The notes: a model not told the origin generated them from the letters alone. 64,000 nucleotides of DNA from a virus (IMGVR_UViG_3300028388_003135:91-64090), one strand, 5' to 3'. Positions 1 to 62,439 are shown, counted from the stretch's first letter. A program made the numbers and translations.

Positions 1-276
1 TATGTCCAAATGACGATCCTAGATATCCCAGGCGTGGTGAGTCGGATGAACACGCTCACGATGGAATCTGCTCCGCAATGGCCGACCATAGCTTACCTGC
101 GAGCCGCTGCGGAGCGAGAAAGTCCGCCAATGAAGTTGCTATCGCTTTTCAAGTCGGAAGCATTAGATCGCGGCCCTGAGCGTCCTGCAAAGCAACAAGG
201 CGTAGTAACAACTGACGCAGAGCCCCAAACGTTTGGATTAAAGCCACAGCAAATGACTTTTGACTTGGAATTCTGA
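1..276 (+). CDS. C-terminal part of an N6_Mtase/HsdM-like protein (probably continues the ORF at 63576..64000)
   Basis: The frame is open from base 1 and reads YVQMTILDIPGVVSRMNTL, resembling the 'YIQLSLLGIPAVV..GNTL' end of phage N6-MTase-like proteins. Confidence 0.65.
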   Translation, partial: YVQMTILDIPGVVSRMNTLTMESAPQWPTIAYLRAAAERESPPMKLLSLFKSEALDRGPERPAKQQGVVTTDAEPQTFGLKPQQMTFDLEF

Positions 277-282
277 TTTTCC

Positions 283-369
283 GCGCCCTGTTGATCGCCA
301 GATTACGCCTTTACCTATGGGCGGGGAATTGTCCCCGCGAGACACCACTTTGAAAGGCTAGGACATGAC
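283..369 (+). promoter_or_regulatory. Bipartite early-promoter-like motif plus leader repeat, copy 1
   Basis: GCGCCC at 283 and GCCTTTAC at 307. 308-369 is nearly identical to 8675-8740 and includes the hairpin GCGGGGA-ATTG-TCCCCGC. Confidence 0.65.
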
Positions 370-685
370 GAAAAACACTGTTACGCGAATCGCGCACGAC
401 GAGTTGATTGCTGAAGCGTGGTCGCGGTCGTTCAAATATGAAAAGTGCATCGCGACTGCAACGCGGCTAGACGACAGCATTATCGGACAACTGCGAGCTT
501 ACTTGGCAGTGTCGTGCAACAATTGGCAGATCGTCTATCGACCAGACCTCCCAAGTGGACGGCATGAGCATGGCCAGATTTGGATCGGCGCCAACAGTCA
601 CGCAACAACTCGAATTGCAGACGCTTTCGTGTCCGGTTGGACGGCCAATCTCGCATATGCACAGAGGTCCGCACGCATCGCATAG
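365..685 (+). CDS. Hypothetical protein
   Basis: ORF directly after the conserved leader (GAAAGG RBS-like). Confidence 0.65.
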   Translation: MTKNTVTRIAHDELIAEAWSRSFKYEKCIATATRLDDSIIGQLRAYLAVSCNNWQIVYRPDLPSGRHEHGQIWIGANSHATTRIADAFVSGWTANLAYAQRSARIA

Positions 686-761
686 GTCGAAACGCCTTCG
701 GGCGTCTAGGTTGGATGATTCCCGACCTACTGACGAGACAACTCAAACCACGGAGCCGGGC

Positions 762-1019
762 ATGGTTAGCACAGCACAAGCACGAAATCTATACCTCAAG
801 GCAAGCGAAGCGTTCGTAGAAGCGATCCACAATATGGACGGATCGACCGAAAGCGAAATTGAACGACTACGAGTCGCCGCCGCAAACGCGAACGGACGAC
901 GCGAAGCGATCAGGGATCTGGTTGGAGAAGCTCAAGTGCGAGAGTGGGTCACACAAAGCGAGCAAGGTCGCGTGTTCAAGGATGGTTTTGGCAACGTGCT
1001 CAGCCAGCCCCCATTCTAA
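762..1019 (+). CDS. Hypothetical protein
   Basis: ATG at 762 preceded by GGAG; in frame with ORF 555..1019. Confidence 0.5.
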   Translation: MVSTAQARNLYLKASEAFVEAIHNMDGSTESEIERLRVAAANANGRREAIRDLVGEAQVREWVTQSEQGRVFKDGFGNVLSQPPF

Positions 1020-1033
1020 AGAGCTCACACCAA

Positions 1034-1066
1034 GCGCCCCAAACACAAACGTTTGGGGCCTCTATT
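1034..1066 (+). promoter_or_regulatory. Bipartite early-promoter-like motif with palindrome in the spacer
   Basis: GCGCCCCAAACACAAACGTTTGGGGCCT, identical at 4672 and 6063. Confidence 0.65.
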
Positions 1067-1114
1067 GTAGGGCGGCGTTTGCCGCGACCGACACCACTAC
1101 CTTAGGAGACACCG

Positions 1115-2596: not shown

Positions 2597-2643
2597 GGGA
2601 TGGTGTCCCCCTAGCGGGCGCGGCGAGAATCCTAAGGCTCGCC

Positions 2644-2675
2644 GCGCCTACCCATCCAAACGTTTGGGCCTAGAG
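2644..2675 (+). promoter_or_regulatory. Bipartite early-promoter-like motif with palindrome
   Basis: GCGCCT at 2644 and GCCTAG at 2668 (same 24-nt offset as the other copies); palindrome at 2657. Confidence 0.55.
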
Positions 2676-2712
2676 AGATAGGCACCAAAGTTCTTTCACG
2701 GAGACGATTACT

Positions 2713-3150
2713 ATGAGCAAGATGACTCACCATGATTTACGGATTGGCGACAAGGTCAGCGTGAATGGCAAGCCACCACGCACCATAAGCAGGTTGCTAG
2801 GCGGCGATCGGTTCACAGTCCACGGGATCGCAGGCAGCGGCGAGCCGGCTTTTCAGGTATGGTCGTTCTACGAGAACAACGTCCTGCGGACCGAGCAAAC
2901 GTCCGACACTGGCGTGCGGTATGTGGATGCATTCCTGCTAGCACTGGATGAATCGAACGGCATCCTAGACAGTGAGTTCGCGGACAAGTGGCTAGATGAA
3001 CTGCTCGACGAAGGTAGCGAACTCGTCGAAGATGTCCGGCAAACGTTTCTGAGCCACTCGCCTATTTTTCGCTTCCCAGAATCCACGCAGCTAATCATCA
3101 GCCGACTAGGTGAGGTTGCGTTTAACGAACCGGAGACCACGGATGAATGA
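2713..3150 (+). CDS. Hypothetical protein
   Basis: ORF with GGAG RBS. Confidence 0.6.
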   Translation: MSKMTHHDLRIGDKVSVNGKPPRTISRLLGGDRFTVHGIAGSGEPAFQVWSFYENNVLRTEQTSDTGVRYVDAFLLALDESNGILDSEFADKWLDELLDEGSELVEDVRQTFLSHSPIFRFPESTQLIISRLGEVAFNEPETTDE

Positions 3151-3703: not shown

Positions 3704-3734
3704 TAGGCAAAGTTCATTTCACTGGAGGCACCAC

Positions 3735-4658: not shown

Positions 4659-4671
4659 TGGCGGCGGCGCA

Positions 4672-4703: not shown

Positions 4704-4737
4704 GGTAGGCAAAGTTCATTTCACCGGAGGCACCAAA

Positions 4738-8649: not shown

Positions 8650-8740
8650 GCGCCCCAAACGTTTGGATTTCGGACCTTTACCTATGGGCGGGGAATTGTC
8701 CCCGCGAGACCGACACCATCTTGAAAGGCTAGAACATGAC
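8650..8740 (+). promoter_or_regulatory. Bipartite promoter-like motif, palindrome and leader repeat, copy 2
   Basis: GCGCCC at 8650, ACCTTTAC at 8674, palindrome at 8656; 8675-8740 is similar to 308-369. Confidence 0.65.
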
Positions 8741-9536
8741 TAAGACTGCTACATCTAAGGCGACTAAAAAGTGGGTTCGTTTGGACGAGATCGTTTTTGA
8801 TAGCGAGAAGTACCAAATGCGACGTGACGATACGGCAGATTTCGTCAAGGAATATCGCGGGATGCTTCGGGACGCTTCGGAGGCAGCTGCAGAAGGCACC
8901 CGCCCTCAGTGGCCGTTCAAGGATCCGATTGTCGTATACGACATCAAAGGCGAGCTGTACTGCGTGGAAGGGTTCACGCGAGGCGAAGCAGCTCACAAGG
9001 CCAGGTGGGACGAAGTCTACGTCGAGATCCACAAGGGCACTGAGCAGAAGGCGATGATCGCGGCGTTGGGTGCCAATGCGACCCACGGAAAAGCGAGAAC
9101 GAACGCTGACAAGCGAAACGCGGTCCTTAGAGCGTTAGAGGAACTGACAGCGGCAAAGTGGACCCCGCCAAAGATTGCACAGGTTTGCAACGTGTCCGAC
9201 CAGTTTGTTCGCAACATGATCAAGCGTCGCGAGAAGGGCCAAACGTCCAAGGCTGGCGTTGAATCAGCGTTAGCGCCGCAGCCGGAAGCTGAAACCAGCA
9301 GTCCAGCTACGAAGGCAGATAAAAAGCCAACAGCCGCGCAGAAGGCGAACACGGCATCAGTCAGCAATGGTTCAGTCGACCCCCAAGAGATGCGCAAGCA
9401 GCGAGCAAGCAATGCATATACTGCACTTGGCGGGATTGTAACGGTCAGTGAAGAACTTGGATTTTATGATGATATCAAGGACCACCTAGATGCAATTCAA
9501 TCCCGATTCCAAAAAGCGCGACAGTCTGGCAAGTAG
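8736..9536 (+). CDS. ParB/Srx-like protein with HTH
   Basis: PIVVY...YCVEGFTR.EA, ANATHG..RTNADKRNAV, WTPPKIAQVCNVSDQFV (HTH-like). Confidence 0.75.
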   Translation: MTKTATSKATKKWVRLDEIVFDSEKYQMRRDDTADFVKEYRGMLRDASEAAAEGTRPQWPFKDPIVVYDIKGELYCVEGFTRGEAAHKARWDEVYVEIHKGTEQKAMIAALGANATHGKARTNADKRNAVLRALEELTAAKWTPPKIAQVCNVSDQFVRNMIKRREKGQTSKAGVESALAPQPEAETSSPATKADKKPTAAQKANTASVSNGSVDPQEMRKQRASNAYTALGGIVTVSEELGFYDDIKDHLDAIQSRFQKARQSGK

Positions 9537-9788: not shown

Positions 9789-11477
9789 GTGATGGATATC
9801 TTTGACCAGTTGGACTCAGAGTTGCTAGGCGAAACCGACGCAGCAAAGTTCGGCGAACGTCCGCCTCGGGTGGCTCACCAAGATCGTGCTATGGAGCAGA
9901 TCGCGAGAGAGCGCGATCTGCAGCGAGGCAAGCGCGTTAAGGATCCAATATTAGTCGTTGGTCCCTGTGGTAGCGGCAAGTCGCGGATTATGACGGATCT
10001 CACGATGGAGGAAGTATCGCGAGGTGGGCAAGTCGTGTTGAAGGTCCATCGAAACATGCTGCTAGAGCAGCTAATCGACGACCTCACCGGTGCAGGAATT
10101 GATTTCGGCATCATCCAAGCTGACTACGCAGGCGATCCACACGCGCCGGTCCAGCTAGCCTCAACGCAAACCTTATATCGAAGGGCGATCAAGAGTCAGA
10201 CCATCGACATGCCTGACGCGACGTTGGTAATCAACGACGAAGCACACCAGCAGGCCGGGGCGATGGAACGGTCGTTGATCTATGGAGCGATGCAGGGTGG
10301 TTGTGTAATTCCAGGTTGGTCGACCCGCCAAGTCGATGTAGTGGGGTTCACCGCTACACCAGTGTCGCAGTCCAAGATTTATCGCCGCATGGTTGAGTTC
10401 GCGACATACTCGCTAATGCGAGAGGTCAAGTTTCATCAGAAGGTGAAGGTCTACGGACCCTCGGAGATCGACATGAGCGGTCTTCGGCCGAACGCAGAAG
10501 GCAACTTCGCGACAGCGAAACTCGGTGAACGTGCAGTCAAGTTGCACGGAAGCATTTACAGTTCATGGAAGAGCCTAAACCCGTTTGCACTGCCTACAAT
10601 CGGGTTTGCGCCTTGTGTGCCATCGTCTAAGTGGTTCGCGTTTAAGTTTGCAGACAAAGGTGTACCAGTCGCCCATATGGACGGAGAGTTGATTCTCTAT
10701 CCAGAGGTTGGACCGAGGGGAGCAGTTAAGCTCAAGGAGATCGCGTCTACGCGAGAAAACCGAGCGATGGTCCTGGCGGGTTCGAAGGACGGGTCCATCA
10801 AGATTGTTTGGAATCGGTTTTTACTGCGCGAAGCAATCGATATGCCGTGGCTATATCACGGCATCTTCGCGACGGTCATGGGCTCGATCACATCGGCGTT
10901 GCAATCTGTGGGGCGGCTTCAGCGCTTTTGGGGCGACTACGATTTTAAGATTATGCAGGATCATGGCGGATGGTATTGGAGGCATGGTTCGCCGAACGAC
11001 GACCGAAGATGGAAGCTAGGGTATGCTGCCAAGCACTATCAGCGTGAGAGAGTCAAACGTTTGGCTAAGGGCGAGGAGTTCGAAGGGCTCTGCTGTCCGA
11101 AGTGTTCAATGTGGCGGAAGTCCGGTCCAGTATGTCCAGGCTGCGGCAACAACCACAAGCGTTCAATGCGAGTCGTGCAAACCAAAGCTGGAACGCTCAA
11201 AGAGATGCACGGAAGCGTATACAAGAAAGAAAAGGCGAAGCCGAGCGACATGCAGAGGCTTTGGACCGCGCACATCTTCCGTGGCTATGCATTGGACCAC
11301 TCGGTCGATCAGGCAGTAGCGTTGTTCTGTTCTGAGTTGCAGCGGAAAGGTTTGCCGGTGGATTGGAAGTTGTTTCTCAAGTTGAACCACGCGCCGCCGA
11401 ACCCAGACTCAGCCGATTACCGACGAAAGATCAGGAGTTACTATCCGTGGGCAAGACGAAGGACAGAACGGAAGTAG
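9789..11477 (+). CDS. Superfamily 2 DEAH-box helicase with C-terminal Zn finger
   Basis: GPCGSGKS, INDEAH, GFTATP, LQSVGRLQR, CPKC..CPGC. Confidence 0.9.
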   Translation: MMDIFDQLDSELLGETDAAKFGERPPRVAHQDRAMEQIARERDLQRGKRVKDPILVVGPCGSGKSRIMTDLTMEEVSRGGQVVLKVHRNMLLEQLIDDLTGAGIDFGIIQADYAGDPHAPVQLASTQTLYRRAIKSQTIDMPDATLVINDEAHQQAGAMERSLIYGAMQGGCVIPGWSTRQVDVVGFTATPVSQSKIYRRMVEFATYSLMREVKFHQKVKVYGPSEIDMSGLRPNAEGNFATAKLGERAVKLHGSIYSSWKSLNPFALPTIGFAPCVPSSKWFAFKFADKGVPVAHMDGELILYPEVGPRGAVKLKEIASTRENRAMVLAGSKDGSIKIVWNRFLLREAIDMPWLYHGIFATVMGSITSALQSVGRLQRFWGDYDFKIMQDHGGWYWRHGSPNDDRRWKLGYAAKHYQRERVKRLAKGEEFEGLCCPKCSMWRKSGPVCPGCGNNHKRSMRVVQTKAGTLKEMHGSVYKKEKAKPSDMQRLWTAHIFRGYALDHSVDQAVALFCSELQRKGLPVDWKLFLKLNHAPPNPDSADYRRKIRSYYPWARRRTERK

Positions 11478-14114: not shown

Positions 14115-14425
14115 TAAGTCAATGGGAACGACGGGCCAAACGTTTGGCTTGGTCACATCAACGACGGCCAGCGGGAAAGGGAAGGTCTATGGCTAAGGTG
14201 TTTGATATGGGCCGAGGGTTCAATGCGACCGCGGGCACGGACTTGTGGTCAGCTAAGCTGATAAGCCCAGAGCCCAATATAAATGCAACAATGGCTGCTC
14301 AGTTAATGGCTGAGGCAGCAAACACTTTGGCTATGCCAGGCGTGTTGGCTCAAGTCAACACTTCACCACAGCAACAAGATCCTTTAGTACGCAAGCAACA
14401 TAAGCGGAGAGTCAACCTTGACTGA
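14111..14425 (+). CDS. Hypothetical protein
   Basis: Fills the gap between coupled genes. Confidence 0.5.
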   Translation: MISQWERRAKRLAWSHQRRPAGKGRSMAKVFDMGRGFNATAGTDLWSAKLISPEPNINATMAAQLMAEAANTLAMPGVLAQVNTSPQQQDPLVRKQHKRRVNLD

Positions 14426-15056
14426 AAATCCGACCGACGAAAACGCAGTGCCAGAAGCGGTAGAAGAAATTGAGGCATCGCTTGATCTTTCACTATTCCC
14501 TGTCATTGAGCTGGACAAGCTCAAGCTCGACCCGAGCAACGCAAGGAAGCATGGGTCAAAAGACATTGACGCGATCGCGGAGAGCTTGCAAGGCTTTGGG
14601 CAGCAAACGCCGATTGTGATTAATCGATATGGCGTGATCGTCAAAGGCAATGGAACGGTGCTAGCAGCAAAGCAGCTGGGTTGGGAAACGCTGCACTACA
14701 TCGTGACAAAGCTTGAAGGCGACGAAGAGCGAGCCTATGCGATAGCGGACAATCAAACCGCCCTCCTGTCTGAGTGGGATATCGAAGAGCTGTCGAAGCA
14801 AATCCAAACGTTTGACGAGTCGTTATTAGGCAAGCTGGGATTCAGCGATGCCGATCTCGCTGAGTTGATCGACGCCAACATTGAGACGTTCACGGTAACG
14901 GACGGACCAGGCGGCGAGATCGAGCCGGAGGACGACACGGCGTTTACAGTTCAGCTCACTGAGAAAGTGCCGGACAGCGATAAAGGCAAAGTGATCGAAG
15001 CAATCAACAAAGCTATGGAAGGGGCAGGTCTTGCTTATCGCGCCGAAGCCTACTGA
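14418..15056 (+). CDS. ParB-like nuclease domain protein
   Basis: NARKH...IAESLQGFGQQTPIVI...GNGT..AAKQLG...AIADN. Confidence 0.85.
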   Translation: MTENPTDENAVPEAVEEIEASLDLSLFPVIELDKLKLDPSNARKHGSKDIDAIAESLQGFGQQTPIVINRYGVIVKGNGTVLAAKQLGWETLHYIVTKLEGDEERAYAIADNQTALLSEWDIEELSKQIQTFDESLLGKLGFSDADLAELIDANIETFTVTDGPGGEIEPEDDTAFTVQLTEKVPDSDKGKVIEAINKAMEGAGLAYRAEAY

Positions 15057-15993
15057 TAAGGTTCCCCTGCTGGTTAGCTACCACTACATCAAGGATTGGC
15101 CAGAAGAACGAATCAAGTATGTTCTCGAAAATCCACACCTAGAAGTCCTGATCGACTCCGGAGCGTTCTCAGCGTTGAACGCTGGCGTTGAAGTTGATAT
15201 CGAGGAGTACATGGCGTGGGTCAAACGTTGGGAAAACCATTTGTTTGGCTACATGCTGCTCGACAAGCTCGGCGACCCGAAGACATCTGCTGAGAACTAC
15301 GAGGTTATGCTTCGCAATGGACTCCATCCGATCCCGATTCATGTGCGCGGTGATGGCGAACAGCGAATGGACGAATTGTTCGAACGGTCGGCGTATGTCG
15401 CGTGTGGTGGCTTCCGACGCCCTAAGGTTGGGTGGAGCAGCGAAGGTTATGTTGAGCTCAAGATGCAGTGGGCGAAAGGTCGGCCCGTCCACTGGTTAGG
15501 CTACACGAAGCATACGATGCTGATGCGATATGCCCCGTACTCCTGCGACTCGTCGAACGTGATGTCGGCGGCGCAGTATGGCTTGTTGATCTACCCAAAG
15601 TCAGGTGGGCTCACGCAGATCAAATACAACGAGCTCAAAGCATCGCCGCCCATCGCCCTTAAGCGAACGCTCGACCGGCTTGGCATTCAATGGGAGGATC
15701 TCAAGGACAGGCGGTCATGGCGATGCAACCGCCCTGCAGGCCAAGAATACTGCGAGCACTTGTCGCACTTTATGACGTGCTTTGCTTACGTGGACTACGC
15801 AAGACGGATGAATGCCTATAACGGAACGCGAGTATTCATAGCGACCACCGGCGTCTATGACACACCAGAGATGGTGAGTTTCTTCGCCAATGAGACTTGC
15901 CTGACTGAACGCGCACCATACCCGGTGAGCATTGCAACCCGACCGAGACCCGTTGCTGAATGGAGCAATCAAGATGCAGCCGCTACCGCCTGA
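15031..15993 (+). CDS. dpdA: tRNA-guanine transglycosylase-like protein (DpdA-like DNA 7-deazaguanine transglycosylase)
   Basis: LLVSYHY, LIDSGAFS, PIPIH, VHWLG, SCDSS; adjacent to queD/queE/folE. Confidence 0.7.
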   Translation: MLIAPKPTDKVPLLVSYHYIKDWPEERIKYVLENPHLEVLIDSGAFSALNAGVEVDIEEYMAWVKRWENHLFGYMLLDKLGDPKTSAENYEVMLRNGLHPIPIHVRGDGEQRMDELFERSAYVACGGFRRPKVGWSSEGYVELKMQWAKGRPVHWLGYTKHTMLMRYAPYSCDSSNVMSAAQYGLLIYPKSGGLTQIKYNELKASPPIALKRTLDRLGIQWEDLKDRRSWRCNRPAGQEYCEHLSHFMTCFAYVDYARRMNAYNGTRVFIATTGVYDTPEMVSFFANETCLTERAPYPVSIATRPRPVAEWSNQDAAATA

Positions 15994-16372
15994 TGACGTC
16001 CAGATACTTGAGATAGTTGTCACGACAGAATTTGAGGCCGTGCACTGTTGGCCCAACGCGCCAGAGGGCAATATTCTCAAGCATCCGCACCGGCATAAAT
16101 TCTTCGTTCGCGTCAAGTTTGCGGTCACGCATACTGACCGCCAGTTAGAGTTCTTGGACATGAAAGAAGTGGTCGAGGGTCATATCGCTAATCGGCTGAA
16201 CCAAATTGAAGCGATAGGCCGGGGTGGAGAAGCGTTGCATTGGTCATGCGAAGACTTTTGCAACGACATCGCCGCGCATCTACAATCGCAAGACTACCCA
16301 GTGACGTTTGTCTCCGTGTTCGAGGACAACGAGAATGGAGCAGAGTTAACGTTAGGGCTGAAAAGTGTTTGA
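15974..16372 (+). CDS. QueD/PTPS-like T-fold protein
   Basis: FEAVHCWP...HPHRH.F...DRQLEF...SCE...V.EDNENGA. Confidence 0.65.
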   Translation: MQPLPPDDVQILEIVVTTEFEAVHCWPNAPEGNILKHPHRHKFFVRVKFAVTHTDRQLEFLDMKEVVEGHIANRLNQIEAIGRGGEALHWSCEDFCNDIAAHLQSQDYPVTFVSVFEDNENGAELTLGLKSV

Positions 16373-17006
16373 CAGCGAACCATACGAAGAGACAGACCGG
16401 ACCATCACGTTTAAGGACGGTCAGACAGTGTCGTTTGGGGTCCTACCTAGCCCCCGGCCAAAGCTCAAACGTTTGCCTACTTGGGTCCTTGTAGTCGTGT
16501 ACCTTGCAGCTATCGTTGCTGCGAACTTGCTGGTTGCCCGCTATGGACAGATAGCGTTACTGTTCACGGCGGTCGCTCTCCTGCCAACTGACTTTCTAAT
16601 CCGCGACATCCTTCACAGTCGCTGGGAAGTTGAAAGCAAGTATTGGTTCTTCGCGATGGCCCTGCTTGTCGGCAGCGGCGGCGTGATAACGTTGCTGGTC
16701 AATTACTCGGCGGTTAACGTGGCTCTGGCGTCTTCTGCGGCGTTCTGCGCGGCAGGGGTGTCAAATGCGGCGGTGTACGCTTCAATCGCGTTAGATCGCA
16801 AATTTACCCGCATGACCGCCTCGAATGCTGTGGCCAGTGTGGTAGACTCGGTCCTGTTTCCACTTTTGGCGTTTGGAACGCTCGACTGGCGGATCTCAGC
16901 TGGTCAAGCCGCCCTCAAGTTCATAGGCGGGTTGCTACTCACAATTTGGTATCTTCGCAGGACCGACCCACGTGCGATATTTCTCAACAAAGACCTACGG
17001 GCATGA
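16365..17006 (+). CDS. yhhQ: VUT/YhhQ family queuosine-precursor transporter
   Basis: AIVAAN..., RDILH, ALASSAAF, SNAVASVVDSVLF..LAFG, Q...K; multiple transmembrane segments. Confidence 0.8.
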   Translation: MFDSEPYEETDRTITFKDGQTVSFGVLPSPRPKLKRLPTWVLVVVYLAAIVAANLLVARYGQIALLFTAVALLPTDFLIRDILHSRWEVESKYWFFAMALLVGSGGVITLLVNYSAVNVALASSAAFCAAGVSNAAVYASIALDRKFTRMTASNAVASVVDSVLFPLLAFGTLDWRISAGQAALKFIGGLLLTIWYLRRTDPRAIFLNKDLRA

Positions 17007-17412
17007 GCTCGGGTTGTCTTGCTGTTTTCGACAGCATAAAGCCAAGAGCCACTGTAATCGTTTGCATGGCTACGCGATCAGCGTCAAGCTGGTTTTCGAA
17101 GCCGACACATTAGACCATCGCAATTGGGTTCAAGACTTCGGCGATCTCGATTGGGTGAAGACTTATTTGAAGCAAACGTTTGACCACACAACAGTAGTCG
17201 CAGCAGACGATCCAGCGATGAAGGTGTTCGAGGACATGCATTCGAAAGGACTGCTCAAGCTGGTGGTCCGTGAAGCAGTTGGTTGCGAAGCGTTTGCAAT
17301 GCAGATCGCGGATTACGTTGCCTCCGGACTGCCACCGCGAGTGAATTTGTTAGAGGTCGAGGTACGAGAGCATGGCGCCAATAGTGCAGGAGTCAAGATC
17401 TATGGAGCATGA
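16972..17412 (+). CDS. queD: 6-carboxytetrahydropterin synthase
   Basis: CNRLHGY, WVQDFGDL, FDHT, GCE.FA, VEVREH..NSA. Confidence 0.9.
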   Translation: MRYFSTKTYGHELGLSCCFRQHKAKSHCNRLHGYAISVKLVFEADTLDHRNWVQDFGDLDWVKTYLKQTFDHTTVVAADDPAMKVFEDMHSKGLLKLVVREAVGCEAFAMQIADYVASGLPPRVNLLEVEVREHGANSAGVKIYGA

Positions 17413-18034
17413 GAAGCAGTATCGAATAAACGAGGTGTTCGTAGCTAAGCAGGGCGAGGGCTTGCGAAGCGGCGAGATGTCGATATTCGTTCGGTTCAGC
17501 GGCTGTAACATGCGTTGCGACCTTGAGGCGAGCCAGGTGTCGCCAGGCGGTTTTAAATGCGATACCGAGTTCACTAGCGGGCGGTCGCTCAACGCAGCAG
17601 CGATCCTCAAGTACATCGACGAGATGAAGGCGATAGCGAAGACGCCAGAATGCAATTGGATCGTCCTGACTGGCGGCGAACCTATGCTGCAAGTTGACCA
17701 ACCGTTGATCGACGCATTGCATCAAGCGGGCTATCGGTTACAAATTGAAACCAATGGAACGCTCGAAGTGCCGAGGACGATCGATTTCATCACAGTCAGT
17801 CCCAAGGTTGCGGAGCATGCGATTGTGCAACGCTCAGCGACTGAGGTGAAGTATGTTAGGGGCTACGGCCAGGCACTGCCGTCAACTTGCGTAGACGCAA
17901 AGCACTTTTGGATCTCGGCAGCGTTCGACTCAGGCAGCGTTGCCCCCAAGACCGTTGAATGGTGTTCTCAACTATGCGAAGGAACCAAATGGAAGCTCAG
18001 CCTACAGACACACAATCTCGAGGGAAGTCGATAG
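17402..18034 (+). CDS. queE: 7-carboxy-7-deazaguanine synthase (radical SAM)
   Basis: QGEG..SG...FVRFSGCN, CDT, LTGGEPMLQ, IETNGT, VSPK, LSLQTH. Confidence 0.9.
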   Translation: MEHEKQYRINEVFVAKQGEGLRSGEMSIFVRFSGCNMRCDLEASQVSPGGFKCDTEFTSGRSLNAAAILKYIDEMKAIAKTPECNWIVLTGGEPMLQVDQPLIDALHQAGYRLQIETNGTLEVPRTIDFITVSPKVAEHAIVQRSATEVKYVRGYGQALPSTCVDAKHFWISAAFDSGSVAPKTVEWCSQLCEGTKWKLSLQTHNLEGSR

Positions 18035-25931: not shown

Positions 25932-26519
25932 ATGATCTGGTTGGCAGTGGCGATGGCGATTGGTTTTGTCTGTGGCATAGGGACTGCAATTGGCGTTCTG
26001 TTCTGCCTCCCTGCAAGCGACGATCACCGGCAGATTGAGATTCAGAAGCGCGAGCTATATTCGCAGTTATCCGGAAAGAACCCGCAGGATGTGTGGACCG
26101 AGCCCCGGTCCCCTGAACGTTGCGATGCACGGAGCAACAGTACAGAAAAGACGCCGTCGGTTGCTTCCGTGCAATCGGTTGTTCGCACGCCTGGTCCGTG
26201 GCGTGTGGCAAGACTTGATCGCGTATGTCACCCCAATTTGCCAAACAACTCACTTGGTGTCGTAGCTGATCCGTCGCACAAGCAAAACGGCGTTCGAGGC
26301 AACGCGGCAGTGATATGCATAATTGCGCCGCCAGAGTTTTTGACGCCACAGGACATTGAAAACGCAAGGCTCATTGCGATTGCACCGAAGCTGCTCGAAG
26401 GCTTAGGTGAGGCGTTAGCAATGTTGCGCTCGCAGTATGAGGAATCAGACACGCCGACGTGTGAAGCATGGCTTGCGGATCTAGAACGCCTGGAGTCAAT
26501 CGCCGACAGCGCATGCTAG
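25932..26519 (+). CDS. Hypothetical protein (TPGPW...NARLIA.AP.LLE phage motif)
   Basis: N-terminal transmembrane segment plus a common phage motif. Confidence 0.6.
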   Translation: MIWLAVAMAIGFVCGIGTAIGVLFCLPASDDHRQIEIQKRELYSQLSGKNPQDVWTEPRSPERCDARSNSTEKTPSVASVQSVVRTPGPWRVARLDRVCHPNLPNNSLGVVADPSHKQNGVRGNAAVICIIAPPEFLTPQDIENARLIAIAPKLLEGLGEALAMLRSQYEESDTPTCEAWLADLERLESIADSAC

Positions 26520-27130
26520 ATCGTGCCAACGCCAGTGGTATCTACAGCAGCAACGGCTCGACGAATCGACGCTGCGGGGATATCAAGCGATTCGCCTTCA
26601 CTGTGCAGTTGGGCATTCAAAGCAATTGCTGGCAAGTACGCATGCCAATTGCCTGACGGCCAATACCGGAGATCAGCTGCGACGTCGCGGAGAGAATGCC
26701 GCAGCTCTCTAGTTCGTTCAGCACCAGCAATGTGCCGCAGTGTCAGGGTCGAATACCACAAGCCAGGGCCGAGCATTTTCTTAGCCAAACGTTTGACTTC
26801 GCTCACTGTTACGGTCAATCTGCCGTTGTGGCGAATGGGTGCGAGTAAGCCTGCTCTCACCAGTCGCCGCATTTTGTCGTGTGATGGCCAGCCGGGTAGT
26901 AGCGTTGCTGCCACGGCCAGTGAGACGCGCCCCCGCTGAGGCGGAGTGACCTGAAGCCCTAACTCTAAGGCCAGCGGATCGCTATACTGACGTTGGTTCT
27001 GCAGGTGGGCGCGAACGGTGTTCCTGTGGATGCCGAGCGTACGCGCGACTTCCGACCGACTATTCCCTGCTCGCGATAGCTCATGGATCCGGCGAACAGT
27101 TCGAGGCGTCAGATGTTTGCTAGTTGGCAT
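26516..27130 (-). CDS. Double-HTH DNA-binding protein (only convincing minus-strand gene)
   Basis: GNSRSEVARTLGIHRNTVRAHL; second MerR/excisionase-like HTH (SLAVAATLL...MRRLVRAGLL). Confidence 0.75.
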   Translation of the reverse strand: MPTSKHLTPRTVRRIHELSRAGNSRSEVARTLGIHRNTVRAHLQNQRQYSDPLALELGLQVTPPQRGRVSLAVAATLLPGWPSHDKMRRLVRAGLLAPIRHNGRLTVTVSEVKRLAKKMLGPGLWYSTLTLRHIAGAERTRELRHSLRDVAADLRYWPSGNWHAYLPAIALNAQLHSEGESLDIPAASIRRAVAAVDTTGVGTI

Positions 27131-27141: not shown

Positions 27142-30100
27142 ATGGAAGATAGCAAGGTAGTCGATAACCCGATTTTTAATCAAAACGGCGAAGTAGTCGA
27201 CGGTACACGCGACATGGTAGCCGATCTCTTAGACGCAATCCAAGGCGATGGCCTGTTTGACTCCCTGCAGGAGAGTTATTGGTCGCACTTTGGCAACGTG
27301 TCCAACCCATACGCCTCAATGCAAGGTTTTGGTTGGCTATCTGACCGACAAGGCTACCACACGCAGAATCGCGACCGGCTGGAAGGTCGCTATTCTCCGG
27401 TCTACGACAACGAGATTGATCTACGCGCGATCCGCCAAGCCTGCCGTTTACTGATTGAGCGGGTGCCTGTTGCAAAGGCGATGCGAGAACGGCTCGTCGA
27501 CTACACGATCTCGAAAGGGTTTGAGATCAAGATCACGCACGATTCGCCCGACGTCCAACAGCTTTGCCAACGGGTCGTGGATAAGTTCATTGAGGACAAC
27601 GACTGGGAATCGTTAGAGATTGAGTCGTTCGAACGGGAACACGAGGAGGGCGAGTTCATCGCGTCGCTGCGTTACGAGCAGGGGCACGTGATGATGGATA
27701 TTCACGAAGGCGACTATTTGAGCGAACCGGTCAACACGGGCGAGCTTGAGTCGTGGTTGCAGCTGCCGGACCGGATCGATCCCTGCTGGACGTTTGGTGT
27801 GCTCCGAGAAAAGCATAGACGGCGAAATCTTGGCTACCACATCACCCGCGATCTCGGTGCGGATTGGCAATTCTATCCCGAGCGACATTTTGTCCATTGG
27901 AAACGAAACAGCAAACAAGACGCTAAGCGTGGGTTTGGAGATCATTACACAACGCACCAATGGCTGAGTCATGGTTCCAAAGTCCTTGGAAACACTGCCC
28001 ACGGAGCAGCAATTCAAGCTGCTATCGCGTACGTCGTAGAGCATGCCAACAAGGTTACGAGCGGGCAGGCAGCGGCATTGGCAGCGACCCGAGGAAAGGT
28101 ATCGATGCGTCCGCAAGTCAACGGAGACGGGACGACCTCAACGCAGCGGAAGTTCAACCCCGGTACCGTTGTCGACCTAAACCAGGGTAGCAAGTATCAC
28201 GCGGGGCTACTTGGCTCGAACAACTCACAGATCTACATCACGGTGATGGAAGCCTGCATGCGGCTATCGGGAACTATCTGGGCGTTTCCCGAACATATGC
28301 TGACCGGCTACGCGGGGAATAACAACCGCGCGAGCAGCGAGACCGCCGAGAGTCCGTTCATTCAGGGACGGCTTCGCGACATCCGGATTCGATCGAAGCG
28401 AACCAAACGTTTGGTTTTGAAGATCCTCCGCATGTACTTCGATGCTAATCAGAGCATAGGGAGTTGGGAGGAGATCGAACCGGGGCTGGATGTAGCGATT
28501 GGCGAACCAGAGATTGTCAATCGTGATGAAGCAGCTGTGACGGCAGCACTGGTTCAGCAAGCCGAGAAGGGATGGGTATCTAACCACACAGCAATGACCA
28601 CGCTAGGCCGCGACGTCGAAGACGAGCAGGCGAAAATTGCGGACGAGCAGAAGTCGCAGCCAGGCCAGCAGGAAGGCCCTGCAGCGGGCCGCTCAGCGAC
28701 GTTCGGCGGGCTCTCCCGTATGCAATGGACACGCAACAACAGGGCCTTAGATGACGTGCTAGGGGCTTTAAAAAGCGGTGGAGTCAGTGCTCGCAGAGCG
28801 CGCGTAATGTTGCGAACGTTGGGATTGGACGGTGATGACGCTTTAGAGTTGATTCAAGATGCAGGCGGTCCCCAACGTTTGGGCGAGTCTATTGAAAGGT
28901 TTCTTGAGGCGTGGGATCCGAGCGAGCATCCGCGATACCCGAAGGGGCATCCGAAGGGCGGTAAGTTCATGTCGAAGGATGATGCGGAACAGTACCATCG
29001 CGAGCAGGCCGCGCAACAAACGCAAGTCGAAGCAGCGAGGAAGGTCGAGAAGGCGATGCGCACGCTCAAAGGTCGCAAAGAGCTCTCGCAAGAAATATAC
29101 GAGAGCTTGGACGCTGACGGCCAAACAGCGATGTATGAGTATTCTGGCATCGGCATCGACATTAATCAGGCGATCCGCGACGGACGTACCAGCGGTGTGC
29201 ACATGGAAGCGGCCAGGGCTCTTGAGAAGGTCATGCAGCAGTCAGGAGTCGAGGTCCCAGCGGGAACCCTTTTGCATCGTGTGGTCGAAGAAAAGCATGT
29301 GAAGGCGTTGCTAGAAACAGGCGTAGATGCTGATGACGCATTCGTCTCAACGACCGTTGGCAACCTTGACCGCATCAAGTCGGACATGGAGGACTTCGAC
29401 GCCGAGAATCCGGTAACGCTGAACATACTGCTTGCGGACGACATCAAGGGCTTGCCGCTACAGGGTAAGTTTAATCAGTACTTCGCGTATCAGGACGAGG
29501 TTCTGCTTGAGCCAGGCACTGTCTTTGAATTGGAGTATAAAGACGGCAATAGCATCGACGTGCTCGCGTACAAGCGACGGGAGGCACCCGACTGGACTGG
29601 AGGCGGTGTAGCGAACACGTCGCAGTTCGACACGGCGCACGCTCGCGACAACGCCGGGCGGCGACTAATGCAATCAGCGCCGGCGATGCTAGCGGCCAAC
29701 CGAGAGTTCGCGGACTTCGCGGCTTTCGAGGACGATACGGAGCAGCGTGTATCGTCAGCAGCGAAAGAAATGTTCGGGCATGGGTGGGATGCCGTGACGC
29801 GAGAATCTGTAGCCGACGCGGCGGGGGCGCTGGATAACGCGTCTGTGATGGTCGACGAGTGGGAGGGGCAGATCCGCGTATCCGTCAAACATCCGGACGT
29901 CATGACGCAAGAGCGGATCCTATACAGGGAGGGCAACGAGACGTTCATGCTCAACGACCAGCTAGAAACATTCGGAGAATCAGGTATTGGTCGGGAAATC
30001 TTCCGACAGCAGGTAGTAGCGTCCAAACGTTTGGGCCTCAACGCGATGAAAGCCGTTGCGTCAGGCGACGGTCGCGTTGGAGATCAGAACGGTTACTACA

Positions 30101-60520: not shown

Positions 60521-60704
60521 CGCTTGAGATCATCGAGCACGAAAGGACTACCGTTTGCTGGATAGCGACTGAACGATGGATAAGTTGAAACGGCCCGATA
60601 ATTGATGATATTTGCTACCAGCAAGCAAGGATTGAGTTTTATTGCCCGAAGTGCGGTAGAAAGTATGGAACATTCCTACGCCGAATCATGGGACGCCATG
60701 ACGA

Positions 60705-60807
60705 GGCTAGTCGGTCGTCTACTGGATAGGACGCCTGTCGGTGGCGGGCTTGCAATCCGTCAAGACAGGAGAAGCGGGGTTCGATTCCCCGCCCGGCGAT
60801 TTAGCCA
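60705..60807 (+). tRNA. tRNA-like RNA with extended anticodon arm (loop CTTGCAA, anticodon TGC/Ala)
   Basis: D-arm GTC-TACTGGATAG-GAC, T-arm GCGGGG-TTCGATT-CCCCGC, 3' CCA at 60805-60807. Confidence 0.55.
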
Positions 60808-60877
60808 GATAACTTCGGATTATGTTGCGCGGCGCAACGTATGCTCAAACGTTTGGATTGCTGGGCCGAAAGTCTGC

Positions 60878-60906
60878 TTGACTAGCGAATAGCATGAGCG
60901 TATGTT
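60878..60906 (+). promoter_or_regulatory. Sigma70-like promoter
   Basis: TTGACT-N17-TATGTT, 22 bp downstream of the palindrome at 60846-60855. Confidence 0.55.
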
Positions 60907-60913
60907 GCTAAAT

Positions 60914-61117
60914 AGCTGATCAAAGGTCCTGGCGGACAACCTGATTGGCGGACTGACTGACCGAAAGGCAAGTAGAGAACTTTCCTGCGAGGCAACCAAC
61001 CTTCTGCAGCTTCATGCTTTCGAGCATGTCTCACTATTTGCTTAGTGTCAGTCCGCGAAGTCCGCCAACCGGTTGTCTCGCAGGGTAGTTCTCATTCTTT
61101 CCCAACCTCGATCAGCT
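60914..61117 (+). ncRNA. Structured non-coding RNA candidate
   Basis: Closing helix AGCTGATC/GATCAGCT, several long internal helices, UUCG and GAAA tetraloops, no ORF in the track. Confidence 0.55.
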
Positions 61118-61465
61118 CGAACATGATCGGGGCGTCTATGTCAGCCCTCGGGCTGCGGTCTAATGGCATAGTGGAGCAGCATGGCGGCGCTGCGTAGGAA
61201 AACGGTAGTCGCGTCCGGCAGGCCAAGAGCTAGCGGACATCTTCATTCCATCTCGTTGAGAACCCCGAGTGCTTGGAGCGTGCGAGGGCCCTTCGTTGGG
61301 TGACTGGACAGCACGTTAAAAACGCGGAGCTTGCTGGGTCATGCTGCGCTCGCGTTGTGGGCCGCTCGGGTCCTTATAGGGTTATGTAGCGTCCAGCTTC
61401 ACTAAAACGTTTGGACGCTGATCAAATAACAACAACCGCGAAGCGACGATAAGAGGGCATGAAAC

Positions 61466-61681
61466 ATGCGGGACCGATTTCATTATGACGCGAACGGACG
61501 ACTGCGAGGACGCTCCTCTGATCGCGGACCGGGCGGCGGTTGTGGAATAGTCATAGCGATAGCTGGCTTGATGTTAGTGTTCACTACCGGAGGGCGGAAC
61601 GCCGTAGAGGCATTCGGGTTTCTCATGCTCGTTCTGATAGCTGTGGTAGCACTAGCGATATCTATGAGGTTGATTAAATGA
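61466..61681 (+). CDS. Small two-TM membrane protein
   Basis: Two hydrophobic helices. Confidence 0.5.
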   Translation: MRDRFHYDANGRLRGRSSDRGPGGGCGIVIAIAGLMLVFTTGGRNAVEAFGFLMLVLIAVVALAISMRLIK

Positions 61682-62439
61682 GGATCGCAAGCGTGAGCAG
61701 CAAGCAAGGATTTAGGCCGTTCGCTAAAACAGAACCAACGCTAGGCATCGTCCTGCTAGGGAACTGGTCGGTTTTGGTAGCTCGTAAAAATCGAAGCAAT
61801 CAGCGGAACCATCTTGCCGACATGCCGACCCAAGCTTCTGCGAGTAACGGTAGGCACTGGTTGTCCTGCAGTAATTCGTTCGGGAGATCTACCGCCTTCA
61901 TGCGACCAGCAGCTATCAACTGCACATCATGTATCAATCAGGCGCAGCAGCTAACAATGCGTTGGCTCGCTAACGAGATGGGGTGTGAGCGACCAGAACA
62001 CTGCAACAGGGAGCTGGTAGCAGTAGCCATAGATCAGCTACTCGACAGCGAAGCATATCCTGAACAGCTCAAGACGTTGATCATAGCGAACGCGCTGATA
62101 GCGCTTGAAAACCCGCCGAAGGCGCGGTCGGACTACTTGCGAATACCATCAGCAGAGCTGCTACTGAGCCTTTCGGTGAAACCAAACGTTTGGGATGGCG
62201 TTCCTTCTTTCCCGTCTCTCAGCGAGTCCGGTTTGCCAAAAGGTACGAGGAAGTCTGGCCGGATCAGGCTGTCAATCTACTTGGACCTTGTCATGCGAGG
62301 CCTAGTCACAGTAGAGCCAGGCAAGCCAATATTCTTAACCAACAAAGGCGTCGACGTGCTTCGCCATGACGACACGATAAGGCTGGTGGAAACACAAAGA
62401 CAAAGGAGAACCGATGCAAACCATAGTCCTGTCCGTTAA
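61678..62439 (+). CDS. Hypothetical protein with C-terminal wHTH-like segment
   Basis: YLDLVMRGLV......LTNKG; start uncertain. Confidence 0.5.
   Translation: MRIASVSSKQGFRPFAKTEPTLGIVLLGNWSVLVARKNRSNQRNHLADMPTQASASNGRHWLSCSNSFGRSTAFMRPAAINCTSCINQAQQLTMRWLANEMGCERPEHCNRELVAVAIDQLLDSEAYPEQLKTLIIANALIALENPPKARSDYLRIPSAELLLSLSVKPNVWDGVPSFPSLSESGLPKGTRKSGRIRLSIYLDLVMRGLVTVEPGKPIFLTNKGVDVLRHDDTIRLVETQRQRRTDANHSPVR

What the first reader, a model, noticed from the sequence alone, without database searches (positions are those of the whole stretch)
226..62192. Genome-wide, evenly spaced lattice of the palindrome CAAACGTTTG (57 copies, about one per 1.1 kb)
Seen: 57 perfect copies by manual count, where about 0.06 are expected by chance in 64 kb. 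Near-copies also occur (3040, 5213, 6232, 8133, 12018, 61404), and some extend to 16-bp palindromes (28401, 57801). Spacing is more regular than random. Of 56 gaps (mean about 1.1 kb), only 5 are under 500 bp and 2 exceed 2 kb; an exponential model predicts about 20 and about 9. More than half of the copies lie inside coding sequence, in all three frames: KRL in portal, tape measure, FolE and helicase; QTF in TerL and QueD; NVW in DUF1064. Selection is therefore on the DNA, not the protein. About 43 of 57 copies are followed by G and about 27 are preceded by C, a strand skew. Established: phages usually avoid palindromes. Known analogues are host chromosome signals (parS, Noc NBS, matS, cyanobacterial HIP1), and I do not recall a phage with such a lattice. 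Inference: this is a binding or loading site for a dimeric protein that must coat the whole genome, for example for compaction, segregation, silencing, packaging/ejection, anti-defence or targeting of DNA modification.
Basis: partly seen in the sequence, partly recalled or inferred. Interest (0 to 1): 0.95.

Follow-up and report, generated by a model that had tools for sequence, protein, structure and literature searches.

The report
Phage-wide palindrome array, ParB-like reader
An uncultivated phage, probably of planctomycete bacteria, carries one 10-base palindrome about every 1.1 kb along its whole genome, most likely as docking sites for its own ParB-type DNA-binding protein, and related phages carry the same kind of array with different palindromes.

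Summary
There are 57 exact CAAACGTTTG copies where 0.1 are expected. Gap CV is 0.40, and none of 20,000 random placements came that low.

Selection acts on the DNA. 29 copies lie in coding sequence, against 1.5 after synonymous shuffling. The tripeptides KRL and QTF are 5-7 times over-represented.

The motif is not a host signal: 406 planctomycete genomes hold at most 25 copies each, like the reversed control.

Relatives found through the capsid carry analogous arrays of different palindromes, 8-23 copies each. This points to a phage-encoded reader that co-evolves with its sites.

The best candidate is the protein at 8736-9536. It has a ParB/Noc/KorB fold, a GxxRxxA box, an HTH and a predicted C-terminal homodimer. 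In seven of seven orthologues of the relatives' type, a site sits in the 3' part of the gene. At the same codons it changed from ETFP to ATLP when the motif changed.

The 7-deazaguanine genes are not required. Binding, spreading and purpose are untested.

This is a new variant of a known kind (KorB operators, Noc sites, mycobacteriophage stoperators). It is unusual for its density, its even spacing and the recoding of proteins.

The parts
226..62192 (.). Array of 57 exact CAAACGTTTG palindromes. A weaker 16-bp symmetry surrounds the core: A at position -3 and T at position +3 in 28 of 57 copies each.
   Evidence: start coordinates: 226, 1046, 2657, 3676, 4684, 6075, 7549, 8656, 9717, 11054, 13061, 13505, 14137, 14805, 16466, 17173, 18066, 19194, 20440, 20568, 21404, 22444, 23997, 25281, 25913, 26786, 28404, 30024, 30446, 31320, 32014, 32346, 33232, 34005, 35451, 37306, 37910, 39172, 40764, 41592, 42547, 43772, 44840, 46157, 47493, 48734, 50008, 50852, 53377, 54245, 55528, 56770, 57804, 58889, 59340, 60846, 62183. 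Spacing statistics are, flank counts.
8736..9536 (+). Orphan ParB-family protein (266 aa), the candidate reader. It has an N-terminal ParB/Srx-type domain with a GxxRxxA box, a central helix-turn-helix, a disordered linker and a C-terminal two-helix dimerisation domain.
   Evidence: PHROG 1033 'ParB-like partition protein', E 1.1e-14. Pfam HTH_23 at residues 136-169, E 2e-4, below the curated cut-off. AlphaFold2 mean pLDDT 82.7, with low confidence at 176-210. Foldseek top hits are ParB-CDP, Noc and KorB, E 7e-7 to 1e-4. G79, R82, A85 and A86 are invariant in 4 orthologues; G79 and R82 remain invariant in 14.
8656..8665 (.). Array copy 80 bp upstream of the ParB-like start codon. It may be an autoregulatory site.
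9789..11477 (+). ResIII/DEAD superfamily-2 helicase. In the window, G001, G003, G004 and G006 it lies within about 1.4 kb downstream of the ParB-like gene. It contains one array copy, at 11054.
   Evidence: Pfam ResIII E 6.7e-11.
1036..1059 (+). Terminator-like hairpin with a 9-bp stem that embeds an array copy. The same 24-base hairpin sequence recurs at 4674-4697 and 6065-6088.
   Evidence: predicts the hairpins at 1036-1059 and 6065-6088. One search shows the flanking bases that form the hairpin are identical at sites 1046, 4684 and 6075.
28401..28416 (.). Copy extended to a perfect 16-bp palindrome, inside the 1065-aa portal-containing gene. A second 16-bp palindrome lies at 57801-57816.
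26516..27130 (-). Double helix-turn-helix protein (204 aa), the only sizeable minus-strand gene with a family match. It is an alternative candidate reader and contains the copy at 26786.
   Evidence: Pfam HTH_17 E 2e-6 and HTH_20, HTH_23 and HTH_8 at about 1e-4 to 1e-5. Homologues are found in G006, G004, G025, G007 and G015 but not in G001, G002, G003, G026, G024 or G012.
14418..18034 (+). 7-deazaguanine gene cluster: a second, weak ParB_N protein, a DpdA-like ORF (so labelled in scan note e1-6245610; no Pfam family matched), YhhQ/Vut_1, QueD/PTPS and QueE. It was considered and rejected as the cause of the array.
   Evidence: Pfam results. DpdA, YhhQ and QueE homologues are found only in G004 among 17 relatives' records.

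Best explanation
The palindromes are the cognate DNA sites of the phage's own orphan ParB-family protein (8736-9536). That protein is predicted to form a homodimer and would read each half-site with a helix-turn-helix.

By analogy with KorB on plasmid RK2 and Noc in Bacillus, dimers would load at the sites. Using the N-terminal nucleotide-binding domain, they would then close into clamps that slide or spread over neighbouring DNA. With a site about every 1.1 kb and no gap above 2.5 kb, every base lies within about 1.3 kb of a loading site, so the whole chromosome can be covered.

The likely purpose is genome-wide control of transcription, by silencing or roadblock, or a protective coat.

Shown: the array, DNA-level selection, absence from host-phylum genomes, lineage-specific motifs, and the fold, architecture and predicted dimer of the protein. 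Inferred: that this protein binds the sites, that it loads and spreads, and what this achieves.
For: 1. The array is real and selected on DNA. There are 57 copies against 0.1 expected. Coding sequence holds 29 copies against a mean of 1.5 (maximum 6) in 300 synonymous shuffles. KRL occurs 24 times against 4.3 expected, and 18 of those 24 use the exact motif codons. QTF occurs 12 times against 1.7 expected.

2. Sites were newly made. Homologues in relatives aligned at 11 of the 29 coding sites, and at none of the 11 did the relatives carry their own motif. At those positions the relatives have other residues, for example helicase VKRLA against IEKIL or AKRIQ, and portal TKRLV against LKELI or MREMI.

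3. Of 17 relatives' records examined in full, 11 carry arrays, each of its own palindrome:
- G001, G002, G003, G004 and G026: TGGAAACGTTTCCA type, 8-23 copies
- G006: TGTAAACGTTTACA, 18 copies
- G025: TGGCAACGTTGCCA, 14 copies
- G007 and G015: a GGTCTCGCGCGAGACC type
- G012: GTGCCACnGTGGCAC, 16-17 copies
- G024: ACGGCCGT, 36 copies in 31 kb
By contrast, only 1 of 85 random viral loci of 7 kb or more reaches 5 copies of any 10-13-bp palindrome, and that one is AT-rich.

4. Link to the ParB-like gene. It is present in 9 of those 11 array-bearing records; the two without it are fragments. G024 shares only this protein with the window. In 7 of 7 zinc-ribbon-type orthologues an array copy lies in the 3' part of the gene. 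In six of them it is 150-159 nt before the stop, and at that homologous position the peptide reads ETFP in the GGAAACGTTTCC lineages and ATLP in the GGCAACGTTGCC lineage. In the window a copy lies 80 bp upstream of the gene. The recognition-helix sequence differs between motif classes.

5. The protein looks like ParB, Noc and KorB. See PHROG 1033, Foldseek hits over 150-178 aligned columns and the GxxRxxA residues. For the homodimer, the complex prediction score was 0.45 and the best of 3 controls 0.00. That mark was reached by 20 of 30 proteins solved as pairs of one chain and by 1 of 23 solved as single chains. The runs agree in at least 29% of contacts and the partner's pLDDT is at least 64. 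The interface is residues 220-266. ParB-family dimers have been solved, so this pass may reflect likeness.

6. KorB slides to promoters up to 1.5 kb from its sites (PMC11790492, abstract and passages). That is the same scale as the spacing here.

7. Two other contigs with homologues of this protein carry tandem arrays of 18 iterons with a CAAAACGT core, lying about 1.2-3.5 kb (L474) and 3.4-4.4 kb (L455) from the gene.
Against: Three relatives (G010, G011, G014) have the ParB-like gene but no detectable array, so the gene is not sufficient.

G012 has an array but no ParB-like match in its 38-kb fragment.

Within the GGAAACGTTTCC class the recognition helices still differ, so the covariation is loose and is confounded by shared descent.

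A site inside an 870-bp gene is not improbable at these densities, and many sites are positionally conserved between relatives anyway.

G024 was found through the ParB search, which is an ascertainment bias. Only 4 of 67 ParB-bearing viral loci of 7 kb or more show arrays.

The G-after/C-before skew on the coding strand (43 against 27 of 57) is unexpected for a symmetric dimer.

Pfam's ParB_N model does not hit this protein, and the sequence-level PDB hits are weak (E 0.001-0.7).
Confidence: 0.5

Rival explanations
1. The sites are read by a different phage-encoded sequence-specific protein. Candidates are the divergently transcribed double-HTH protein (26516-27130, minus strand) or one of the many unannotated proteins. 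The ParB-like gene would then merely travel with the array.
For: The double-HTH protein has several HTH matches and homologues in G006, G004, G025, G007 and G015. Most of the 90 ORFs I scanned against Pfam have no match. Three genomes have the ParB-like gene without an array.
Against: At E <= 0.01 the double-HTH protein is not found in G001, G002, G003, G026, G024 or G012, all of which carry arrays. Of 79 window proteins compared, only the ParB-like protein is shared with G024. No other candidate has a motif copy tracked inside its own gene.
Confidence: 0.2
2. The palindromes are targets of an enzyme that marks or cuts the phage DNA at regular intervals. This could be 7-deazaguanine insertion by the DpdA/ParB_N pair, methylation, or site-specific nicking as in T5-like phages.
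For: The window encodes a DpdA-like ORF (labelled in scan note e1-6245610; no Pfam match), a weak ParB_N protein, QueD, QueE and YhhQ. Bacterial Dpd modification occurs at about 1 per 1000 nucleotides, at a site nested in a palindrome (PMC10164549, passages). That matches the density here. A truncated ORF at 63564-63998 has a weak N6_Mtase match, E 9e-4.
Against: Arrays occur in G001, G002, G003, G006, G007, G025 and G026, which give no match to the window's DpdA, QueE or YhhQ. G004 has those genes and only 11 sites. A modification target does not explain why sites would be created at the cost of amino-acid changes, or spaced evenly. The DpdA of Salmonella needs a C after the target G. Neither G within the 10-bp core is followed by C, and the base after the core is C at only 6 of 57 sites.
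Confidence: 0.1
3. The sites mimic the operator of a host protein, such as a LacI/PurR-type regulator or the host's own ParB or Noc. They would titrate or recruit that host protein.
For: The 10-mer appears in papers on PurR and other LacI-family operators (search listing only). A central CG flanked by AA..TT is typical of that family (recalled).
Against: Related phages of similar G+C content use different palindromes. The motif is no commoner than its reversed control in 5 and then 401 planctomycete genomes; the maximum is 25 copies in 9.5 Mb. A real host regulon could be small, however, so this only excludes a chromosome-wide signal. The true host is unknown.
Confidence: 0.08
4. The copies act in RNA or as DNA structure, for example as terminator or processing hairpins or cruciforms, or they are miniature mobile repeats.
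For: Three intergenic copies sit in an identical 9-bp-stem hairpin, and two of those are the top terminator-like predictions in 1-20000. Copies are several-fold enriched between genes: 23-28 of 57 lie in about 18% of the sequence.
Against: 29 of 57 copies lie inside genes, in three frames. A 10-base palindrome alone gives only a 3-bp stem. The reading frames are intact, so the copies are not insertions. Terminator-like hits in the region are no more frequent than in shuffles, 20 against 19.3.
Confidence: 0.05

Closest known systems
KorB and its OB operators on IncP plasmid RK2
   Same: Both involve a ParB-family protein on a mobile element of about 60 kb with dispersed palindromic sites. In KorB the protein acts as a CTP-dependent sliding clamp that reaches promoters up to 1.5 kb away (PMC11790492). 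KorB is among the structural matches of the window protein (8qa9 and 8qa8). The relatives' density of 11-23 sites per 60 kb is similar to RK2's dozen sites (the RK2 number is recalled).
   Different: This is a phage, not a plasmid. No ParA (IncC), KorA or TrbA partner was seen. The window has 57 sites, evenly spaced, and half of them lie inside genes. The site sequence is unrelated. Nucleotide binding and sliding are untested.
Noc and its binding sites on the Bacillus subtilis chromosome
   Same: Noc is an orphan ParB paralogue without a ParA partner. It binds many dispersed palindromic sites and spreads from them. Noc is among the best structural matches (7nfu, 7ng0, 7ol9).
   Different: Noc sites number tens per 4 Mb (recalled), against about one per kb here. 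Noc tethers DNA to the membrane through an N-terminal amphipathic helix, and I did not test for one here. Noc is a host chromosome function.
Stoperators and the immunity repressor of Cluster A mycobacteriophages
   Same: Tens of repressor sites are distributed across the whole phage genome, some of them inside genes. They silence transcription (PMC9283540; PMC6550527; listing and abstract starts). That the sites co-evolve with repressor specificity is recalled, not seen in those listings.
   Different: Stoperators are asymmetric, oriented with transcription, and read by a monomeric two-domain repressor, not a ParB-type dimer.
17-bp palindromic repeat of Cluster O mycobacteriophages
   Same: These phages carry more than 30 copies of an invariant palindrome (TGTTCGGNNNCCGAACA) throughout their genomes. 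About a third of the copies are in coding regions. The genomes also encode a ParB-like domain protein and an AAA ATPase. Function is unknown (PMC4351075, passages).
   Different: The repeat has a gapped, odd-length centre. It is denser toward one genome end and not evenly spaced. No reader has been proposed, and the hosts and phage lineage are unrelated.
ParB-parS partition centromeres
   Same: The protein fold, the HTH reading of a palindrome with a central CG, and a site inside or next to the parB gene are shared features. The Bacillus case of a site inside the gene is recalled.
   Different: Centromeres are one or a few clustered sites that work with a ParA ATPase. Here no ParA was found and the sites are dispersed.

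Membership tests
ParB/Noc/KorB family (ParB-CTPase fold proteins with HTH) | N-terminal ParB/Srx-type nucleotide-binding fold | tested here: met
   The Foldseek top hits are ParB-CDP (6sdk), ParB-CTPgS (7bm8, 7bnr), Noc and KorB, at E 7e-7 to 1e-4, on a model with mean pLDDT 82.7. PHROG 1033 matches at E 1e-14. The sequence-only PDB search gives sulfiredoxin at E 0.001 and Noc and Spo0J at E 0.4-0.7. Pfam's ParB_N model itself does not hit this protein.
ParB/Noc/KorB family (ParB-CTPase fold proteins with HTH) | Box II GxxRxxA motif with the conserved arginine | tested here: met
   G79, R82, A85 and A86 are invariant in 4 orthologues. G79 and R82 remain invariant in 14. The motif definition comes from PMC10164549 and PMC12704722.
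ParB/Noc/KorB family (ParB-CTPase fold proteins with HTH) | Central helix-turn-helix DNA-binding domain | tested here: met
   Helices run through 123-173 in the model. Pfam HTH_23 matches 136-169 at E 2e-4, below the cut-off. The Foldseek alignments to ParB, Noc and KorB chains span 150-178 columns.
ParB/Noc/KorB family (ParB-CTPase fold proteins with HTH) | C-terminal dimerisation domain | tested here: met
   The predicted symmetric interface covers residues 220-266. The score was 0.45 with a best control of 0.00. The mark was reached by 20 of 30 solved homodimers and 1 of 23 solved monomers. Run agreement was at least 29% and pLDDT at least 64. This is a prediction only and may reflect likeness to solved ParB dimers.
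ParB/Noc/KorB family (ParB-CTPase fold proteins with HTH) | CTP (or other NTP) binding, clamp closure and spreading from the cognate site | not testable with these tools
   This needs biochemistry.
Canonical ParABS partition system | ParA ATPase partner and the N-terminal ParA-interaction motif | tested here: not met
   None of the 90 window ORFs I scanned gave a ParA/CbiA-type Pfam match. No LG(K/R)GL-type motif is visible in the N-terminus printed. The protein is therefore treated as an orphan ParB.
Host chromosome-wide repeats (HIP1-like repeats, uptake sequences) | Motif is as abundant in the host chromosome | tested here: not met
   Five planctomycete genomes hold 3-8 copies against 5-9 for the reversed control. 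A sample of 401 genomes of the phylum has a maximum of 25 copies in 9.5 Mb, and 208 of 401 have any copy at all. The true host species is unknown. The host phylum is inferred from capsid relatives in MAGs and genomes.
Dpd-type 7-deazaguanine modification target | Array depends on DpdA/DpdB and the preQ0 pathway genes | tested here: not met
   DpdA, YhhQ and QueE homologues are found only in G004 among 17 relatives' records. Arrays are present in 10 records that lack them.
Mycobacteriophage stoperators | Asymmetric site oriented with transcription and read by a monomeric repressor | tested here: not met
   The core is a perfect palindrome. In relatives the invariant site is a 14-bp perfect palindrome. 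Only a weak flank skew exists in the window.

The most novel reading that the evidence does not exclude
The array is a genome-wide loading lattice. Its spacing has been tuned by selection to the sliding range of a phage ParB-type clamp, so that the whole viral chromosome is kept under a protein coat, a kind of 'phage chromatin'. The coat would silence or shield the DNA. Related phages would have switched site and reader specificity in concert at dozens of positions to avoid cross-talk, as heteroimmune groups do. In this lineage the demand for sites was strong enough to rewrite protein sequences.
Probability: 0.3. Interest if true: 0.85.

Novelty: new variant of a known kind. Interest (0 to 1): 0.8.

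Why it matters
If the ParB-like protein reads these sites, this would be a phage counterpart of KorB or Noc, acting over an entire viral genome. It would also be in a host phylum, Planctomycetota, whose phages are almost unstudied.

The family offers a natural series of matched reader-and-site switches: at least six palindromes in related genomes. These could be used to work out how ParB-type specificity evolves, and how dozens of sites change in concert.

The window genome shows how far such selection can go. It has one site per 1.1 kb, evenly spaced. Tripeptides are 5-7 times over-represented because the DNA needs the motif.

It may also explain the unexplained palindromic repeats of Cluster O mycobacteriophages, which also encode a ParB-like protein.

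Tried and rejected
Searches for named relatives. Megablast of window 1-25000 and tblastn of the capsid against 50,697 phage records gave no match. A TerL-based scan of viral contigs gave 6 distant loci (32-37% identity) with no copy of the motif and no array.

DNA-pattern scans of viral contigs. All were single chance hits, apart from one self-overlapping pair and one locus with two copies. This scan therefore cannot show that no other contig has the array. A 23-mer of the recurrent hairpin gave 0 hits. Across the 496 non-self loci fetched, none has more than 2 copies of CAAACGTTTG (5.6 Mb for all 500 loci).

For sequencing runs, none was listed, so read laying was not used and no check for read-level nicks or artefacts was possible. 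An assembly artefact is nevertheless unlikely, because reading frames are intact and relatives from other samples show the same kind of array. The search of earlier findings for relatives returned nothing.

Rejected ideas:
- A 7-deazaguanine target.
- A host chromosome signal.
- A strict period: Rayleigh R is only 0.35.
- Sigma-70 promoters: 6 found against 12.1 in shuffles.
- The second ParB_N protein (14418-15056) as reader: it is absent from G003, G004, G007 and G025.

Even spacing is not a family trait. CV is 0.58-0.73 in G001-G004 (P 0.02-0.2), 0.46 in G026 (P 0.016), and 0.9-1.2 in G006, G025, G024 and G012.

Literature searches for a described evenly spaced phage palindrome array found the Cluster O paper and nothing closer. 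Paper supplements were not seen.

Full report
WHAT IS THERE

The window is nearly all of a 64,090-bp IMG/VR viral contig. It has 54% G+C, positive GC skew throughout, and almost all genes on the plus strand.

CAAACGTTTG occurs 57 times, against 0.10 expected from dinucleotide shuffles.

The 56 gaps have mean 1106 bp and CV 0.40. Five are under 500 bp and two are over 2 kb. None of 20,000 uniform placements reached that regularity; their minimum CV was 0.62. None of 20,000 placements that keep the coding/non-coding split did either; their minimum was 0.66. The spacing is regular but not strictly periodic: the best Rayleigh R is 0.35, at 1177 bp.

Only 10 one-mismatch copies exist, so the exact form is strongly favoured.

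G follows 43 of 57 copies and C precedes 27. The skew persists outside genes, at 20 and 12 of 28. A weak outer symmetry, A at -3 and T at +3 in 28 of 57 each, makes a loose 16-bp palindrome.

SELECTION IS ON THE DNA

My gene calls are ORF-based and crude. By those copies are in coding sequence (KRL 17, QTF 9, NVW 3), 23 are intergenic and 5 are ambiguous.

Synonymous-codon shuffling within genes gives a mean of 1.5 copies and a maximum of 6 in 300 shuffles, against 29 observed. KRL occurs 24 times against 4.3 expected, and 18 of the 24 use the exact motif codons. QTF occurs 12 times against 1.7 expected.

Homologues in relatives aligned at 11 of the 29 coding sites, and at none of the 11 did the relatives carry their own motif. 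In those conserved genes (helicase, TerL, portal, tail genes) the relatives have other residues at the positions. These sites were therefore created in this lineage by amino-acid-changing substitutions.

Intergenic space is several-fold enriched for copies. Three copies sit in an identical 9-bp-stem, terminator-like hairpin.

HOST AND HOST SIGNAL

Capsid relatives in 185,579 species genomes lie almost entirely in Planctomycetota genomes and MAGs, including Pirellulales, Planctomycetaceae, Thermoguttaceae, Aeoliella and Bythopirellula. The host is probably a planctomycete.

Five such genomes hold 3-8 copies of the motif, like the reversed control at 5-9. In a sample of 401 genomes of the phylum, the maximum is 25 copies in 9.5 Mb. 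The true host remains unknown.

RELATIVES

No cultured phage matched. The capsid has hundreds of metagenomic homologues at 40-62% identity.

I fetched 80 viral loci through the capsid and then 17 relatives' records in full. Eleven of the 17 carry arrays, each of a different palindrome:
- G001, G002, G003, G004 and G026: the invariant 14-mer TGGAAACGTTTCCA, at 23, 23, 21-22, 11 and 8-9 copies
- G006: TGTAAACGTTTACA, 18 copies
- G025: TGGCAACGTTGCCA, 14-15 copies in 27.7 kb
- G007 and G015: a GGTCTCGCGCGAGACC type
- G012: GTGCCACnGTGGCAC, 16-17 copies in 38 kb
- G024: ACGGCCGT, 36 copies in 31 kb

Six records have no array: G008, G009, G010, G011, G013 and G014.

Arrays are rare in general. Only 1 of 85 random viral loci of 7 kb or more has 5 or more copies of any 10-13-bp palindrome, and that one is AT-rich. 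None of the 496 non-self loci fetched has more than two copies of the window's own motif.

Between G004 or G003 and G001, many sites sit at homologous positions and stay perfect within DNA that is only 65-75% identical. At least one homologous position reads GGCAACGTTGCC in G025 and GGAAACGTTTCC in G004. Sites are thus conserved, and they were converted in place when specificity changed.

Strong even spacing is specific to the window. CV is 0.63-0.71 in G001-G003 (P about 0.02-0.05) and 0.46 in G026 (P 0.016). There is no under-dispersion in G006, G025, G024 or G012.

WHO READS THE SITES

Lineage-specific palindromes argue for a phage-encoded dimeric reader.

The 7-deazaguanine genes are excluded. 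Among the 17 records, homologues of the window's DpdA, YhhQ and QueE occur only in G004.

The protein at 8736-9536 is the best candidate, for these reasons:
- It matches PHROG 'ParB-like partition protein'.
- It folds with mean pLDDT 82.7 into an N-terminal domain plus helical domain, a disordered linker and a C-terminal helical hairpin.
- Its best structural matches are ParB-CDP/CTPgS, Noc, PadC and KorB.
- It keeps the GxxRxxA box.
- It is predicted to form a homodimer through residues 220-266. The score was 0.45 with a best control of 0.00. The mark was reached by 20 of 30 solved homodimers and 1 of 23 monomers. Run agreement was at least 29% and pLDDT at least 64. Solved ParB dimers exist, so this may reflect likeness.
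- No ParA was found in the 90 ORFs I scanned.

The gene lies next to, or within about 1.4 kb of, a ResIII helicase in the family members examined. It is present in 9 of the 11 array-bearing records; the other two are fragments. It is the only window protein shared with the otherwise unrelated G024.

In all seven zinc-ribbon-type orthologues an array copy lies in the 3' part of the gene. In six it is 150-159 nt before the stop. There the encoded peptide is (V/L)ETFP in the GGAAACGTTTCC genomes and VATLP in the GGCAACGTTGCC genome. In the window a copy lies 80 bp upstream of the gene.

Recognition helices differ between motif classes.

Two metagenome contigs with homologues of this protein carry 18 tandem iterons with a CAAAACGT core, lying about 1.2-3.5 kb (L474) and 3.4-4.4 kb (L455) from the gene. 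That suggests a centromere-like ancestral arrangement.

AGAINST

G010, G011 and G014 have the gene but no array. The covariation is loose and is not phylogenetically independent. G024 was ascertained through the ParB search. The flank skew is unexplained. The double-HTH protein (26516-27130, minus strand) is an alternative reader, but it is undetected in six array-bearing records.

HOW IT LIKELY WORKS

By analogy with KorB, which slides to promoters up to 1.5 kb from its operators (PMC11790492), and with Noc, the dimer would load at the palindromes and spread. The spacing puts every base within about 1.3 kb of a site.

A stoperator-like roadblock (PMC9283540 and PMC6550527, listing and abstracts) is an alternative mode of action for the same reader.

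Binding, nucleotide use, spreading and purpose are all inferred.

COMPARISON AND NOVELTY

The kind is known: dispersed cognate sites for a global DNA-binding protein on a mobile element. Examples are KorB operators, Noc sites and Cluster A stoperators. Cluster O mycobacteriophages have an unexplained array of more than 30 copies of a 17-bp palindromic repeat, together with a ParB-like gene (PMC4351075).

What is new here:
- a phage family, probably of Planctomycetota, with at least six matched site variants
- concerted in-place conversion of sites
- in this genome, an expansion to 57 evenly spaced sites that reshaped protein sequences

I rate this a new variant of a known kind, with interest 0.8. 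I found no report of this on other DNA in the scan.

Noticed in passing
window 12679-12924 (+): A phage-encoded CsrA-family protein of 81 aa (Pfam CsrA, E 3.7e-10). It is a possible post-transcriptional regulator carried by the phage.
   Followed up: no
window 19044-19874 (+) and 19965-20381 (+): A dATP/dGTP pyrophosphohydrolase family protein (PF04447, E 1.3e-11) lies next to a staphylococcal-nuclease homologue (E 5.5e-6). Both are downstream of the 7-deazaguanine cluster. They fit nucleotide-pool remodelling and host DNA breakdown.
   Followed up: no
window 63564-63998 (+), cut by the contig end: An ORF running off the window has a weak N-6 DNA methylase match (E 9e-4, below the cut-off). 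The contig may lack a methyltransferase gene beyond its end.
   Followed up: no
L455 5484-6453 and L474 1318-3574: Two metagenome contigs with ParB-like homologues each carry 18 co-oriented tandem iterons, spaced about 31-54 bp, with a CAAAACGT core. They lie about 1.2-3.5 kb (L474) and 3.4-4.4 kb (L455) from the gene, like a partition centromere or an origin.
   Followed up: partly
G024 (L320-L321), a 31,305-bp record with direct terminal repeats: This is an unrelated small phage whose only protein shared with the window is a 433-aa ParB-like protein. It holds 36 copies of ACGGCCGT, 14 of them as AACGGCCGTT, with no even spacing (CV 1.21).
   Followed up: partly
L341-L420 (genome contigs): The capsid family is found almost only in Planctomycetota genomes and MAGs, several times inside multi-megabase chromosomes. 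The wider family therefore includes prophages. These more distant members (36-46% capsid identity) show no clear array.
   Followed up: partly
window 32014-32048 and 41592-41626: Two array copies are followed by the same 15 bases, as seen in the flank listing. They lie ahead of the head and tail gene blocks.
   Followed up: no
window 6895-7749 (+): A DUF3268 zinc-finger-domain protein (E 5.7e-36) lies next to an ERF-family recombinase (7746-8624, E 2.7e-12). The window shows no recognisable DNA polymerase or primase.
   Followed up: no
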